Below are positions 3,775 through 22,650 of a stretch of 64,000 bases of DNA, in pieces. A program made the translations under genes and the position numbers. The stretch's first letter is position 1. Each line of letters begins with the position of its first letter. Source of the stretch: a virus (lineage: Duplodnaviria > Caudoviricetes); IMG/VR virus record IMGVR_UViG_3300027804_000071, positions 913 to 64,912 of that record; one strand, written 5' to 3'. The notes under the pieces are model-generated. The model was not told where the DNA came from. It did not search any database and saw only the letters and a list, made by a program, of their open reading frames with translations.

Positions 3775-3819
3775 TTGACATGACTTGCAACTGGTCATAA
3801 TATGGAGGCTCAACTGCTA
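3775..3819 (+). promoter_or_regulatory. sigma70-type promoter with TCAACTGCTA at predicted +1
   Basis: TTGACA (3775-3780), 17 bp, TAATAT (3798-3803); motif at 3810-3819. Confidence 0.75.
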
Positions 3820-12047: not shown

Positions 12048-12178
12048 TGTCAGACCTCCAAGATACTGACAGCCGTCACTCGCTTTTGATGTAGCAGTTG
12101 ATTGTGAATAAATGACGGCAAGCCCCTCGGTGATCCCCTTCACCCTAAACCCCCAGCTAATCCCTGGGGGTTTTTCTT
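12048..12178 (+). ncRNA. Predicted trans-acting small RNA (three hairpins plus terminator)
   Basis: Stems TGTCAG/CTGACA, GCCGTCA/TGACGGC, GGTGA/TCACC and a terminator; no ORF; own promoter; loops complementary to other phage leaders. Confidence 0.7.
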
Positions 12179-18252: not shown

Positions 18253-18307
18253 CGGCCAACATTAGCCCACAAACCCACTCCGCAGAATGGGCTTGTAGAT
18301 AATGCTA
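18253..18307 (-). ncRNA. Structured intergenic RNA element, copy A
   Basis: UAGCAUU/AAUGUUG outer stem, internal loop, 9-bp inner stem; homologous to 20283-20336. Confidence 0.65.
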
Positions 18308-20282: not shown

Positions 20283-20336
20283 CGGCTAACATTAGCCCAA
20301 TAGGTCACTCAGCGAATGACCTATTAGAAAATGCTA
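20283..20336 (-). ncRNA. Structured intergenic RNA element, copy B
   Basis: Same flanks and loop as copy A; 9-bp inner stem differs in sequence but remains paired. Confidence 0.65.
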
Positions 20337-20600: not shown

Positions 20601-21101
20601 TTATGCCACCTTTTTAAAATCGTTAAAAAATACAGACCCATCAGCTAAATAATCGTATTCGTTGAGGGTTAGAGTCTCGTCAATGTTGTTATCGCTATAA
20701 AAATCCTCTACATCACGGCTAACATAGTTAAGGAATGACTCTATAGCTTGCTGATACGCATACATGGAATCTCCTGTAGCCTTAAAACTGTCGTGAAACT
20801 CTTCCCAAAGTGAGCAGTCAGCACAGTAGCCTGTTGGCATATGGTCACGGCTAAAATCTTTTAGCTTTAACCCACGGAAATTGTGCTTGCCTAGGTCGGT
20901 TTTAATAAAAGCATGGCGGGTATCGCCAACAGACCAATTAAGCATTGAACCGCCAAAATGACCAATAAAAGCCTTGGCTGATTCCATATTTTCATCAAAC
21001 CAAGGATATTCCCAAGTGGAACGAAAGACCTCCCTCGCCTTTTCCTTGGCTTCCTCTTCTAATTCATCAAAACTAAAAACCTGAATTTCTACCTTTTCCA
21101 T
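20601..21101 (-). CDS. Hypothetical early protein
   Basis: RBS TTGGAGGT; VFSFDELEEEAKEKARE...NEYDYLADG. Confidence 0.65.
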   Translation of the reverse strand: MEKVEIQVFSFDELEEEAKEKAREVFRSTWEYPWFDENMESAKAFIGHFGGSMLNWSVGDTRHAFIKTDLGKHNFRGLKLKDFSRDHMPTGYCADCSLWEEFHDSFKATGDSMYAYQQAIESFLNYVSRDVEDFYSDNNIDETLTLNEYDYLADGSVFFNDFKKVA

Positions 21102-21188
21102 ATAACCTCCAAAATTACGCACCCACCCTAAAGATTAACCACCACCCTGACCCGTTGCGTATAGGTCTGGGGGTCGGTTTTTTGATCG

Positions 21189-21290: not shown

Positions 21291-21475
21291 GATTGCACCT
21301 GAGAGACAGAGACACCATAGACGGCTAGAAACTTAATAGCCTCTTTGTCCATCTTCACGGCTTTAGACATCAGCCCCGACAATTCGGCAGATGTTCTGGA
21401 CGGGTTGCCCTGTTCCAGATGGTGACGAGCCACGGCACGAGGCACGGGGCGAGAATTAACATAAAATTGAATCAT
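21287..21475 (-). CDS. Hypothetical early protein
   Basis: Coupled ORF. Confidence 0.55.
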   Translation of the reverse strand: MIQFYVNSRPVPRAVARHHLEQGNPSRTSAELSGLMSKAVKMDKEAIKFLAVYGVSVSQVQS

Positions 21476-21648
21476 CTTTCAAACTCCACCAAAGTATTCA
21501 AAAGGTAGTCTCTGACTGAGTAGCCTGTGACCTCTGGGTGAGTCTCTGCGAGTGCTTTGTATTCCATAAAAAACTCAGCCGAGTCCTTATCGGAAAACTT
21601 AGCAATTGCCTCGCTTGTTTCGGTAGTGTGGCGATATACATAAAACAT
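21472..21648 (-). CDS. Hypothetical early protein
   Basis: RBS TGGAGGT just 3' of the hammerhead cleavage site. Confidence 0.6.
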   Translation of the reverse strand: MFYVYRHTTETSEAIAKFSDKDSAEFFMEYKALAETHPEVTGYSVRDYLLNTLVEFER

Positions 21649-21665
21649 AAAAACCTCCATTTAAT

Positions 21666-21718
21666 GACTAAGACCGTCCTGAGACGGTTTCGGCTAATAA
21701 AGCCCTCATCAGTTAGCC
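21666..21718 (-). ncRNA. Type I hammerhead ribozyme
   Basis: Minus strand: GGCUAA-CUGAUGA-G-GGCU(uuauu)AGCC-GAAA-CCGUC(ucag)GACGG-UC^-UUAGUC; full core, three stems, GUC triplet. Confidence 0.85.
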
Positions 21719-21904
21719 TTGAATCGCTTTTTGCATCTCCTTGGCGAGTTCTATCCACGAGTCAGCATTGATTAAACCCATTGAAGGATATTGCTCAGGG
21801 GTGGACTCTGCGACCTGAGCCGTGTAACGGTTTACCGCCTCCAAAATCATCAGAGGGGCTAAAGGGTGAGAGTCTAGAAGTGCTTGGACTGTTTTAGGGT
21901 TCAT
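21713..21904 (-). CDS. Hypothetical early protein
   Basis: Its stop codon lies in hammerhead stem I. Confidence 0.6.
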   Translation of the reverse strand: MNPKTVQALLDSHPLAPLMILEAVNRYTAQVAESTPEQYPSMGLINADSWIELAKEMQKAIQG

Positions 21905-22332
21905 ACTGTCGCCTCTTTGCTGATGTAGTAGGCGAGAGTCTGCCCCTTTTTGTTGTATTCACCCTGTAAAGAGAGACCCAAAGCCCTAGCGATTCTTTTC
22001 ATTGAATCAAGACCGCAAGCACCGTCAAGACAGACCGACCCATCTGGGCGAATGGTCAAGCCATAGAATGAAGGGTTTATATCCTCGGCAATCTGTAGCC
22101 ACGAAGTAGAGCCATAAGGCACTTTTGGCAAATCCTTAACGAGGGCTTTCAATTCGTCCTGATATTCACACTCTAAGAAATCCCCGAAGACCTTCCCAGT
22201 CATGTCATAGCCACCACCTGAGCAACGATACCGCTTGCCAGAGTTGCGAGAATCAAGACGGCAGATGTTGTAGCCGTAAGTGTCACGACCACGAGAGACA
22301 GACCAAGACAAAGCTAAACGATTGATAAACAT
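21901..22332 (-). CDS. Hypothetical early protein
   Basis: RBS TGGAGGT; YRCSGGGYDMTG...LDGACG, a common phage family. Confidence 0.65.
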   Translation of the reverse strand: MFINRLALSWSVSRGRDTYGYNICRLDSRNSGKRYRCSGGGYDMTGKVFGDFLECEYQDELKALVKDLPKVPYGSTSWLQIAEDINPSFYGLTIRPDGSVCLDGACGLDSMKRIARALGLSLQGEYNKKGQTLAYYISKEATV

Positions 22333-22543: not shown

Positions 22544-22602
22544 TGTGAAAACTCCTAGCAGTTGATTGATGCGAATAGTCACCTATTGACTAATCTCGCC
22601 TG

Positions 22603-22650
22603 ATTTTCATTGCTTGGGGGGTTGCTTGTCAATACCCTAATAAAAATAAA
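22603..22650 (-). promoter_or_regulatory. Leftward sigma70 early promoter
   Basis: TTGACA on minus (22632-22627) with an AT-rich UP-like tract; -10 weak (GAAAAT, 18-bp spacer). Confidence 0.55.

What the first reader, a model, noticed from the sequence alone, without database searches (positions are those of the whole stretch)
21666..21718. Hammerhead ribozyme embedded in the early polycistronic mRNA, cutting just upstream of an RBS
Seen (minus strand): stem I GGCUAA/UUAGUC, core CUGAUGA, one extra G, stem II GGCU/AGCC, GAAA, stem III ACCGUC/GACGGU, and a GUC triplet with predicted cleavage between 21672 and 21671. Stem I includes the upstream stop codon, and the cut lies about 11 nt before the UGGAGG RBS of gene 21472-21648. 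Established: an extra nucleotide between A9 and G10.1 is tolerated in natural viroid hammerheads; hammerheads occur in phage and bacterial genomes with mostly unknown roles. Inference: self-processing of the early transcript, analogous to T7 early RNase III cuts; the 5'-OH end could stabilise the downstream mRNA.
Basis: partly seen in the sequence, partly recalled or inferred. Interest (0 to 1): 0.72.

Follow-up and report, generated by a model that had tools for sequence, protein, structure and literature searches.

The report
Type I hammerhead ribozyme between phage genes
The flagged 53 bases are a genuine, evolutionarily conserved self-cutting hammerhead RNA between two small genes of an uncultured 65-kb phage; it is a new example of a kind of phage element known since 2011, and its exact job is still unproven.

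Summary
On the minus strand, 21718-21666 carries a complete type I hammerhead, with the cut predicted between 21672 and 21671. The upstream gene's TAA stop lies in stem I. GGAGG and ATG 21648 follow 13 and 23 nt after the cut.

It is not a chance match. No equal match occurred in 300 shuffles of the window. The six nearest related contigs keep the element at the same junction, with compensatory changes in all three stems.

A core-pattern scan of IMG/VR plus a covariance model found 125 further copies in 80 contigs. They lie on the coding strand, often in same-strand arrays of 2-7, with a median of 26 nt from cut to start codon.

No Rfam family reaches its threshold. Even so, hammerheads flanking phage genes, and the idea that they cut polycistronic RNA, were published in 2011 (PMC3088659). 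This scan has noted phage hammerheads in at least 347 other genomes.

The extra G is a lineage-specific insertion that close relatives lack. In the one tested viroid case, a G at that position was strongly detrimental, so this copy may be slow.

Most likely the element cuts the leftward small-gene transcript co-transcriptionally. Cleavage itself was not tested.

Verdict: real, ordinary in kind, a new member.

The parts
21666..21718 (-). Complete type I hammerhead ribozyme (53 nt)
   Evidence: Sequence read. Model R1 scores it 72.6 bits. No shuffle of 300 matched it.
21713..21718 (-). Stem I, 5' strand GGCUAA. It contains the TAA stop (21715-21713) of the upstream 63-codon ORF.
   Evidence: Stem I covaries in the orthologues (4 of 6 pairs changed on both sides).
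21706..21712 (-). Catalytic core C3-A9 (CUGAUGA)
   Evidence: Invariant in the orthologues except N7.
21705..21705 (-). Extra G between A9 and G10.1. It can equally be drawn as a one-base bulge within the GGG run of stem II.
   Evidence: Present in the window and L002, absent in L003 and L004. Only about 2 of 70 members of the subfamily carry one inserted base here.
21692..21704 (-). Stem II GGCU/AGCC with pentaloop UUAUU
   Evidence: The loop fits the subfamily pattern: U1 in 70/70, A3 in 67/70, U5 in 55/70.
21689..21691 (-). Core G12 A13 A14
   Evidence: invariant.
21673..21688 (-). Stem III hairpin: A15.1-CCGUC / UCAG / GACGG-U16.1
   Evidence: L004 has a compensatory U-A to C-G change.
21672..21672 (-). 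C17. Predicted cleavage is 3' of this base, between 21672 and 21671.
   Evidence: Position follows from the hammerhead consensus (established knowledge). H17 is C in 69/70 family members. Cleavage was not tested.
21666..21671 (-). Stem I, 3' strand UUAGUC. It would become the 5'-OH end of the downstream RNA.
   Evidence: The isolated stem I duplex is only -3.8 kcal/mol.
21646..21665 (-). Leader with GGAGG (21658-21654) and start codon ATG (21648-21646)
   Evidence: The same leader is kept in L002-L004.
21472..21648 (-). 58-codon gene directly behind the ribozyme; a variable cassette
   Evidence: Present in the window and L004. Absent in L002 and L003, where the same hammerhead and leader drive the next gene.
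21713..21904 (-). Upstream 63-codon ORF whose stop codon lies in stem I
   Evidence: No Pfam or PHROG match.
22603..22632 (-). Best sigma-70-like promoter of the leftward block (TTGACA-18-GAAAAT); presumed start of the transcript that carries the ribozyme
   Evidence: 10 of 12 matches; a consensus match only. It is followed by a 5' hairpin and the leader CAACUGCUAGGAG at 22565-22553.

Best explanation
This is a functional type I hammerhead ribozyme transcribed as part of the leftward small-gene operon of an uncultured, roughly 65-kb aquatic phage. When the 53 nt have been made, the RNA folds into the three-helix junction and cuts itself after C17, between 21672 and 21671. The upstream piece carries the first three genes with their stop codon intact. 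It ends in the compact stem II/stem III structure with a 2',3'-cyclic phosphate. The downstream piece starts with a 5'-OH, six bases of former stem I and an unstructured leader, with GGAGG 13 nt and AUG 23 nt from the new end. Stem I is short and weak, so the products separate and the cut is effectively irreversible. The likely consequence is that the upstream and downstream parts of the operon are uncoupled in stability and translation, much as RNase III cuts do in T7 early RNA or as the engineered RiboJ insulator does. What is shown: the motif, its conservation and covariation, its family-wide placement between a stop codon and an RBS, and its coding-strand orientation. What is inferred: cleavage in vivo, its rate given the extra G, and its effect on mRNA fate.
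For: The core and helices are exact, and no shuffle of 300 matched them. Orthologous copies sit at the same junction in L002-L007, the relatives whose neighbouring 143-aa protein is 64-96% identical. In these, 99% of cells are paired, against 27-44% for slid controls, and 9 of 15 pairs change on both sides. A core-only pattern scan of IMG/VR followed by model R1 gave 125 hits in 80 loci. These are 97.5% paired (62.6% when shuffled, about 32% when slid), with 553 cells changed on both sides. Among 123 distinct copies, 119 have an ORF start within 150 nt downstream on the same strand, with a median of 26 nt from cut to start. The upstream stop codon mostly lies from 5 nt before the element to about 15 nt inside it. 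All 29 loci with several copies have every copy on one strand. The window copy carries the subfamily's extra-helical signature: A 5' of a 6-bp stem I, A 3' of it, and loop II U-N-A-N-U. In relatives L005-L007 the hammerhead directly precedes the leader ACUGCUAGGAG, the same leader that follows the promoter and 5' hairpin of the first leftward gene in the window. The stem I duplex is only -3.8 kcal/mol, and the RBS is equally open before and after cleavage. Published precedent (PMC3088659): clustered prophage hammerheads cleave about 2-kb polycistronic constructs in vitro and in vivo. A halovirus hammerhead lies 13 nt before an early gene's start codon, and a mapped 5' end falls within 3 nt of its cleavage site.
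Against: No cleavage assay or RNA-end data exist for this element. The extra G at 21705 sits at a position where G was strongly detrimental in the one tested case (PMC3705267). The nearly isoenergetic alternative hairpin GGCUAA/UUAGCC (-17.0 versus -16.5 kcal/mol) could trap part of the RNA. No Rfam hammerhead family reaches threshold. Three complete or nearly complete related genomes (G002-G004) have no copy at all, so the element is dispensable. The tight packing between stop codon and RBS could simply reflect genome compaction rather than a functional coupling. The promoter and the 'early' timing rest on consensus matches only.
Confidence: 0.62

Rival explanations
1. The fold is a true hammerhead by descent, but this lineage's copy (window and L002) is crippled or much slowed by the inserted G. 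It would then cut only partially or under special conditions, acting as a decaying relic or an attenuated, possibly regulated, processing site.
For: The extra G is absent from the closest relatives L003 and L004. G at this position was strongly detrimental in CChMVd (PMC3705267). Only about 2 of 70 subfamily members carry one inserted base there, and the other one carries U, the benign variant. A competing hairpin is marginally more stable than the active fold. The element is dispensable in complete relatives.
Against: Every other core base and all three helices are intact. The same insertion is fixed in two independent assemblies. The inserted G lies in a GGG run, so a canonical G10.1-C11.1 pair can still form. 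Local co-transcriptional folding favours stem II over the long-range competitor.
Confidence: 0.22
2. The hammerhead plus its leader is chiefly a module boundary, or a selfish and mobile junction at which small genes are swapped. Any RNA cleavage would be incidental to the phage's gene expression.
For: The 58-codon gene right behind the ribozyme is present in the window and L004 but cleanly absent in L002 and L003, with the break exactly in the leader. The extra-G state and the presence of this gene occur in all four combinations, which implies recombination here. Perreault et al. noted that the genes flanked by hammerheads are not constant (PMC3088659). Distribution among relatives is sporadic.
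Against: A recombination signal would not need a catalytic core preserved with compensatory stem changes across hundreds of divergent copies. It would also not need a strict coding-strand orientation.
Confidence: 0.1
3. Cleavage is followed by hammerhead-catalysed or ligase-mediated rejoining, giving circular or spliced RNA.
For: In arrays of other contigs, the copies often share an identical stem I (for example four copies in L067). That would let a fragment's two ends re-form one ribozyme. Perreault et al. raised the possibility (PMC3088659).
Against: This genome has a single copy. Perreault et al. looked for such products and found none. The weak 6-bp stem I favours product release.
Confidence: 0.03
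4. Chance resemblance with no RNA function.
For: Rfam's curated hammerhead families do not reach threshold (best is RF03152 at 17.8 bits against a cut-off of 56.3, E = 1.2).
Against: No shuffle of 300 matched it. Compensatory changes occur in all three stems at the same gene junction in relatives.
Confidence: 0.01

Closest known systems
Clustered and intergenic hammerhead ribozymes of phages and prophages (Perreault et al. 2011, PMC3088659)
   Same: A canonical core, an intergenic position on the coding strand between small phage genes, and a proposed role in cutting long phage transcripts into gene-length mRNAs. Relative L005 has two copies 945 nt apart, and other contigs carry 2-7.
   Different: This genome has one copy only. 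The copy carries an inserted G after A9. Neither it nor its canonical orthologues are picked up by any Rfam hammerhead family at threshold.
HHphage of haloviruses HF1/HF2 (PMC3088659)
   Same: [quoted passage not shown] In HF1/HF2 the mapped 5' end lies within 3 nt of the cut.
   Different: HHphage has insertions near C3/stem I and depends on salt. Its hosts are archaea. It heads the first ORF, whereas here the ribozyme is internal to the operon.
RAGATH-1 hammerhead (Rfam RF03152)
   Same: Type I topology and the same core. It is the only Rfam family giving any alignment.
   Different: The score is 17.8 bits against a gathering score of 56.3. The family's 5' hairpin is not conserved in the orthologues.
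CChMVd (+) viroid hammerhead with extra A10
   Same: One extra nucleotide between A9 and G10.1.
   Different: The viroid base is A, in a type III ribozyme of a circular RNA replicon. G at that position was detrimental there (PMC3705267).
T7 early-mRNA RNase III sites and the synthetic RiboJ insulator (PMC6206723)
   Same: Both work alike: a cut between cistrons, or ahead of an RBS, that gives each message defined ends and uncouples it from upstream context.
   Different: RNase III is a host protein acting on long hairpins. RiboJ is engineered, leaves a hairpin on the downstream RNA and sits behind a promoter. Here the RNA cuts itself, and almost the whole ribozyme stays on the upstream product.

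Membership tests
Hammerhead ribozyme (class) | Core C3 U4 G5 A6 N7 G8 A9, G12 A13 A14, A15.1-U16.1, H17 (criteria of PMC3088659) | tested here: met
   All positions are present at 21712-21706, 21691-21688, 21673 and 21672.
Hammerhead ribozyme (class) | Three helices around the core, supported by covariation | tested here: met
   Orthologues: 99% paired, 9 of 15 pairs changed on both sides. Wider family: 97.5% paired, 13 of 15 pairs. Caveat: both alignments were fitted to the model.
Hammerhead ribozyme (class) | Standard pairs directly next to the core (1.1-2.1, 10.1-11.1, 15.1-16.1) | tested here: met
   U-A, G-C and A-U respectively.
Hammerhead ribozyme (class) | No insertion within the core or junction strands | tested here: not met
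   There is one extra G at 21705, which relatives L003 and L004 lack. Natural active hammerheads with an extra base here exist, but G was detrimental in CChMVd (PMC3705267).
Hammerhead ribozyme (class) | Site-specific self-cleavage 3' of H17, giving 2',3'-cyclic phosphate and 5'-OH ends | not testable with these tools
   Needs an in vitro transcription and cleavage assay or RNA-end mapping.
Hammerhead ribozyme (class) | Tertiary contact between stem I and loop II for activity at physiological Mg2+ | tested here: inconclusive
   Conserved unpaired bases: A 5' of stem I in 69/70, A 3' of it in 60/70, loop II U1 in 70/70 and A3 in 67/70. The window copy has them all. No structural or mutational test was possible. 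No pseudoknot covariation was seen by eye between the window and L004.
Type I topology | Stems II and III closed by loops, stem I open | tested here: met
Rfam hammerhead families (RF00163, RF00008, RF02275-7, RF03152) | Score at or above the family's gathering threshold | tested here: not met
   No hit at gathering thresholds in the window or in 40 related loci. The best hit is RF03152 at 17.8 bits against 56.3.
Clustered phage hammerheads (Perreault 2011) | Several copies close together, flanking single genes | tested here: not met
   One copy in the window. Relative L005 has two, and many other contigs have 2-7.

The most novel reading that the evidence does not exclude
The window's element belongs to a large phage subfamily of type I hammerheads that I did not find delineated in the papers I read or in Rfam. 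The subfamily has a fixed 6-bp stem I, a 4-bp stem II, a U-N-A-N-U pentaloop and conserved flanking A residues. Its members are systematically wedged between a stop codon and an RBS about 20 nt downstream. In this phage group the ribozyme occupies the same position, ahead of the shared leader ACUGCUAGGAG, that a promoter plus 5' hairpin occupies on primary transcripts. On this reading these ribozymes are natural RiboJ-like insulators that give internal cistrons a standard, protected 5' end. They would also mark junctions at which small gene cassettes are exchanged.
Probability: 0.35. Interest if true: 0.55.

Novelty: new member of a known kind. Interest (0 to 1): 0.33.

Why it matters
Hammerheads are common in phage genomes, yet their biological role is still called an open question (PMC6765202). 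This case adds little in kind. It does offer a clean natural comparison: near-identical phages that differ by one inserted core base, and by the presence of the gene directly behind the ribozyme. It also adds family-wide numbers: cut-to-start distance, the stop codon lying inside the ribozyme, and strict strand bias. Together with the shared leader, these make the 'natural insulator / 5'-end generator' idea concretely testable.

Tried and rejected
- **Rfam at gathering thresholds.** Nothing was found on the window or on 40 related loci. In E-value mode only a sub-threshold RAGATH-1 hammerhead alignment appeared.
- **BLAST against isolated phages.** Searching the ribozyme and the surrounding 1.1 kb gave only short matches to the neighbouring 143-aa gene. 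No cultured phage carrying this element was found.
- **Pfam and PHROGs.** The five small flanking proteins have no family in either library. The sixth protein tested (20604-21122, 173 aa) matched only two PHROGs of unknown function.
- **A pseudoknot between loop II and the 3' flank.** The window and L004 differ in both segments but not in a compensatory way, so I dropped it.
- **TTAGTC near the predicted +1 of the leftward promoter (22593-22588).** I asked whether it is a second partner for stem I. The relatives show it is part of a conserved 5' hairpin (GUCAC-UAG-GUGAC type), so the match is coincidental.
- **Trans-cleavage of other sites.** This is excluded by the topology, because stems II and III are closed.
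- **The same core pattern in bacterial and archaeal genomes.** Only 23 model hits were found in 80 loci, with lower scores; several are in Legionella. This compares with 125 hits in 80 viral loci. The subfamily is therefore mainly viral.
- **A scripting error.** My first shuffle script over-counted stem III and missed the real site. I corrected it.

Full report
**1. What is in the sequence**

Read on the minus strand, 21718-21666 spells a complete hammerhead:
- stem I 5' strand GGCUAA (21718-21713)
- core CUGAUGA (21712-21706)
- one extra G (21705)
- stem II GGCU / loop UUAUU / AGCC (21704-21692)
- core GAA (21691-21689)
- stem III A-CCGUC / loop UCAG / GACGG-U (21688-21673)
- C17 (21672)
- stem I 3' strand UUAGUC (21671-21666)

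The topology is type I: stems II and III are capped and stem I is open. The predicted cut falls between 21672 and 21671.

The TAA stop of the 63-codon ORF 21713-21904 lies inside stem I. GGAGG (21658-21654) and ATG (21648) follow the cut by 13 and 23 nt. Genes in this leftward block otherwise overlap by 4 nt, and the ribozyme fills the one real gap of 64 nt.

**2. More than chance**

A canonical descriptor finds only this site in the window. It asks for CUGANGA, at most one inserted base, a closed stem II, GAAA, a closed stem III ending in U, H17 and stem I. In 300 composition-matched shuffles, both strands, there were two relaxed hits and none as good as the observed 6/4/6 pairs (one search had a scripting error that I corrected).

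ViennaRNA gives the hammerhead-like centroid. The z-score of -2.1 is unremarkable on its own.

Rfam finds nothing at gathering thresholds. In E-value mode only RF03152, the RAGATH-1 hammerhead, aligns. It aligns the whole core but scores 17.8 bits against a threshold of 56.3.

**3. Relatives**

The window is nearly all of a 64,912-bp IMG/VR virus record. Its large terminase is at most 59% identical to those of isolated aquatic phages such as 023Pt_psg01, pelagiphage HTVC027P and DSL-LC04. No close cultured relative exists.

Using the neighbouring 143-aa protein, I fetched 64 related viral loci. The six closest (64-96% protein identity; L002-L007) carry a hammerhead at the same junction. L005 carries a second copy 945 nt downstream. 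More distant loci carry none. Three complete or nearly complete related genomes have none anywhere. The element is therefore accessory.

Across the orthologues the core is invariant. The stems change in a compensatory way: 99% of cells are paired, against 27-44% with slid partners, and 9 of 15 pairs change on both sides. This settles that the element is a real, selected hammerhead fold.

**4. The extra G**

L003 is identical to the window's ribozyme except that it lacks the G. L004 lacks it too. L002 shares it. It is therefore a lineage-specific insertion seen in two independent assemblies, not a sequencing slip in one of them.

Because it lies in a GGG run, it can be drawn in two ways. It can be an extra junction base (-16.5 kcal/mol for the hammerhead fold) or a bulge inside stem II (-12.5 kcal/mol).

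In the CChMVd hammerhead an extra A lowers the rate moderately and U raises it 3-4-fold, but G and C were strongly detrimental (PMC3705267, summarising De la Pena & Flores 2001). In the wider family, the only other copies with a single base inserted here carry U (L122, and L123 at 223).

A competing hairpin, GGCUAA with UUAGCC, is marginally more stable than the active fold (-17.0 kcal/mol). I therefore give about a one-in-five chance that this copy is markedly slowed.

**5. The wider family**

Model R1, built from the orthologues, found 125 matches in them, down to E = 1.6e-15. Covariation is overwhelming:
- 97.5% of cells are paired, against 62.6% when shuffled and about 32% when slid
- 553 cells are changed on both sides

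The caveat is that the alignment was fitted to the model, and the pattern fixed some bases next to the core.

Of 123 distinct copies, 70 share a precise architecture:
- a 6-bp stem I whose outermost pair is G-C (66/70)
- a 4-bp stem II
- a pentaloop with U1 (70/70), A3 (67/70) and U5 (55/70)
- an unpaired A just 5' of stem I (69/70) and A just 3' of it (60/70)

The window's copy has all of these. I read the conserved unpaired bases as the stem I/loop II tertiary contact. That is an inference.

Context is just as regular. A same-strand ORF start lies within 150 nt downstream in 119 of 123 copies, with a median of 26 nt from cut to start codon. The upstream stop codon usually lies from 5 nt before the element to about 15 nt inside it, often using the UGA of the core itself. 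Twenty-nine loci hold 2-7 copies, always on one strand, 180-2000 nt apart.

In bacterial and archaeal genomes the same pattern gave only 23 weaker model hits in 80 loci, several of them in Legionella.

**6. How it most likely works**

The best sigma-70-like promoter of the region (TTGACA-18-GAAAAT, 22632-22603, minus strand) lies about 900 nt upstream, with no convincing terminator in between. The ribozyme is thus probably internal to the leftward transcript.

After folding it would cut 3' of C17. The type I topology has two consequences, which follow from the anatomy:
- The upstream RNA keeps its stop codon and ends in the stable stem II/III structure with a cyclic phosphate.
- The downstream RNA gains only six bases ahead of an unstructured leader.

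The stem I duplex is weak (-3.8 kcal/mol), so the products should part. The RBS is equally open before and after cleavage, so cleavage is not needed to unmask it. The effect is more likely on segment stability and on uncoupling the two translationally coupled gene blocks.

One observation supports a role in making 5' ends. In L005-L007 and in several unrelated contigs the ribozyme is followed directly by the leader (A/C)AACUGCUAGGAG. In the window the same leader follows the promoter and a conserved 5' hairpin of the first leftward gene. The ribozyme thus stands where a promoter plus protective hairpin stands elsewhere.

**7. A variable gene behind the ribozyme**

The 58-codon gene 21472-21648 is present in the window and L004. 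It is cleanly absent from L002 and L003, where the same ribozyme and leader drive the next gene. The presence of this gene and the extra G occur in all four combinations, so recombination happens at or near this junction. This fits the published remark that the genes flanked by phage hammerheads are not constant (PMC3088659). It also sustains a minor rival reading of the element as a module boundary.

**8. Comparison with what is known**

Perreault et al. 2011 (PMC3088659) described hundreds of bacterial and prophage hammerheads. They include clusters flanking single genes, and the authors showed cleavage of about 2-kb polycistronic constructs in vitro and of one triple arrangement in vivo. 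They proposed processing of long phage transcripts, and they noted a halovirus hammerhead 13 nt before an early gene's start codon with a matching mapped 5' end.

A 2019 review still lists the function as unresolved (PMC6765202). Type II copies near phage-like genes in Desulfovibrio were shown to cleave in cells in 2021 (PMC8782182). The engineered RiboJ insulator is the closest functional analogue (PMC6206723).

This scan's own index holds 406 notes on hammerheads in or near phage DNA, in at least 347 genomes. The present element is therefore a new member of a known kind. It meets the core, helix and topology criteria. It fails only the 'no insertion' criterion and Rfam's thresholds. Its catalysis is untested.

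**9. Verdict**

Self-processing of the leftward operon is probable. The extra G leaves the rate in doubt. Novelty is low and interest is modest.

Noticed in passing
window 20283-20336 and 18253-18307 (minus strand); also L002:4823-4890 and L004:4470-4540: A second conserved intergenic RNA motif lies just ahead of an RBS. It has the form UAGCAUU-WUCU-[9-bp hairpin]-GGGCUAAUGUURGCC. Its last hairpin uses GGCUAA/UUAGCC, the same bases as the hammerhead's stem I. UAGCAUU can also pair with AAUGUUA. No Rfam family matches at E<=5. The 20283-20336 copy is conserved in L002 and L004.
   Followed up: partly
window 22553-22600 (minus strand); L002-L005 equivalents: The first leftward gene is preceded by a promoter-like site, a conserved 5' hairpin (GUCAC-UAG-GUGAC type) and the leader CAACUGCUAGGAG. 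The core AACTGCTA recurs at 3812, 12292 and 12889 (plus strand), and its complement lies at 12092-12099.
   Followed up: partly
L108 (7 copies over 4.5 kb), L095 (6 copies), L067, L092 and L120 (4 copies each): Other IMG/VR contigs carry same-strand arrays of this type I hammerhead subfamily, about one per small gene. Copies within a contig often share an identical stem I, for example GUCUAA/UUAGAC four times in L067.
   Followed up: partly
L122:11756-11808 and L123:223-274: Family members with an extra U between A9 and G10.1. U is the variant that raised activity in the CChMVd study (PMC3705267).
   Followed up: no
L219, L244, L236, L214, L194, L228, L243, L262 (Legionella genomes): Type I hammerhead hits of the same model occur in several Legionella species, two of them with two copies within 8 kb.
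   Followed up: no
window 21904-22332 (minus strand): A 143-aa protein with no Pfam or PHROG family. It is nevertheless conserved in more than 60 viral contigs and in Klebsiella, Aeromonas and Pseudomonas phage isolates.
   Followed up: no
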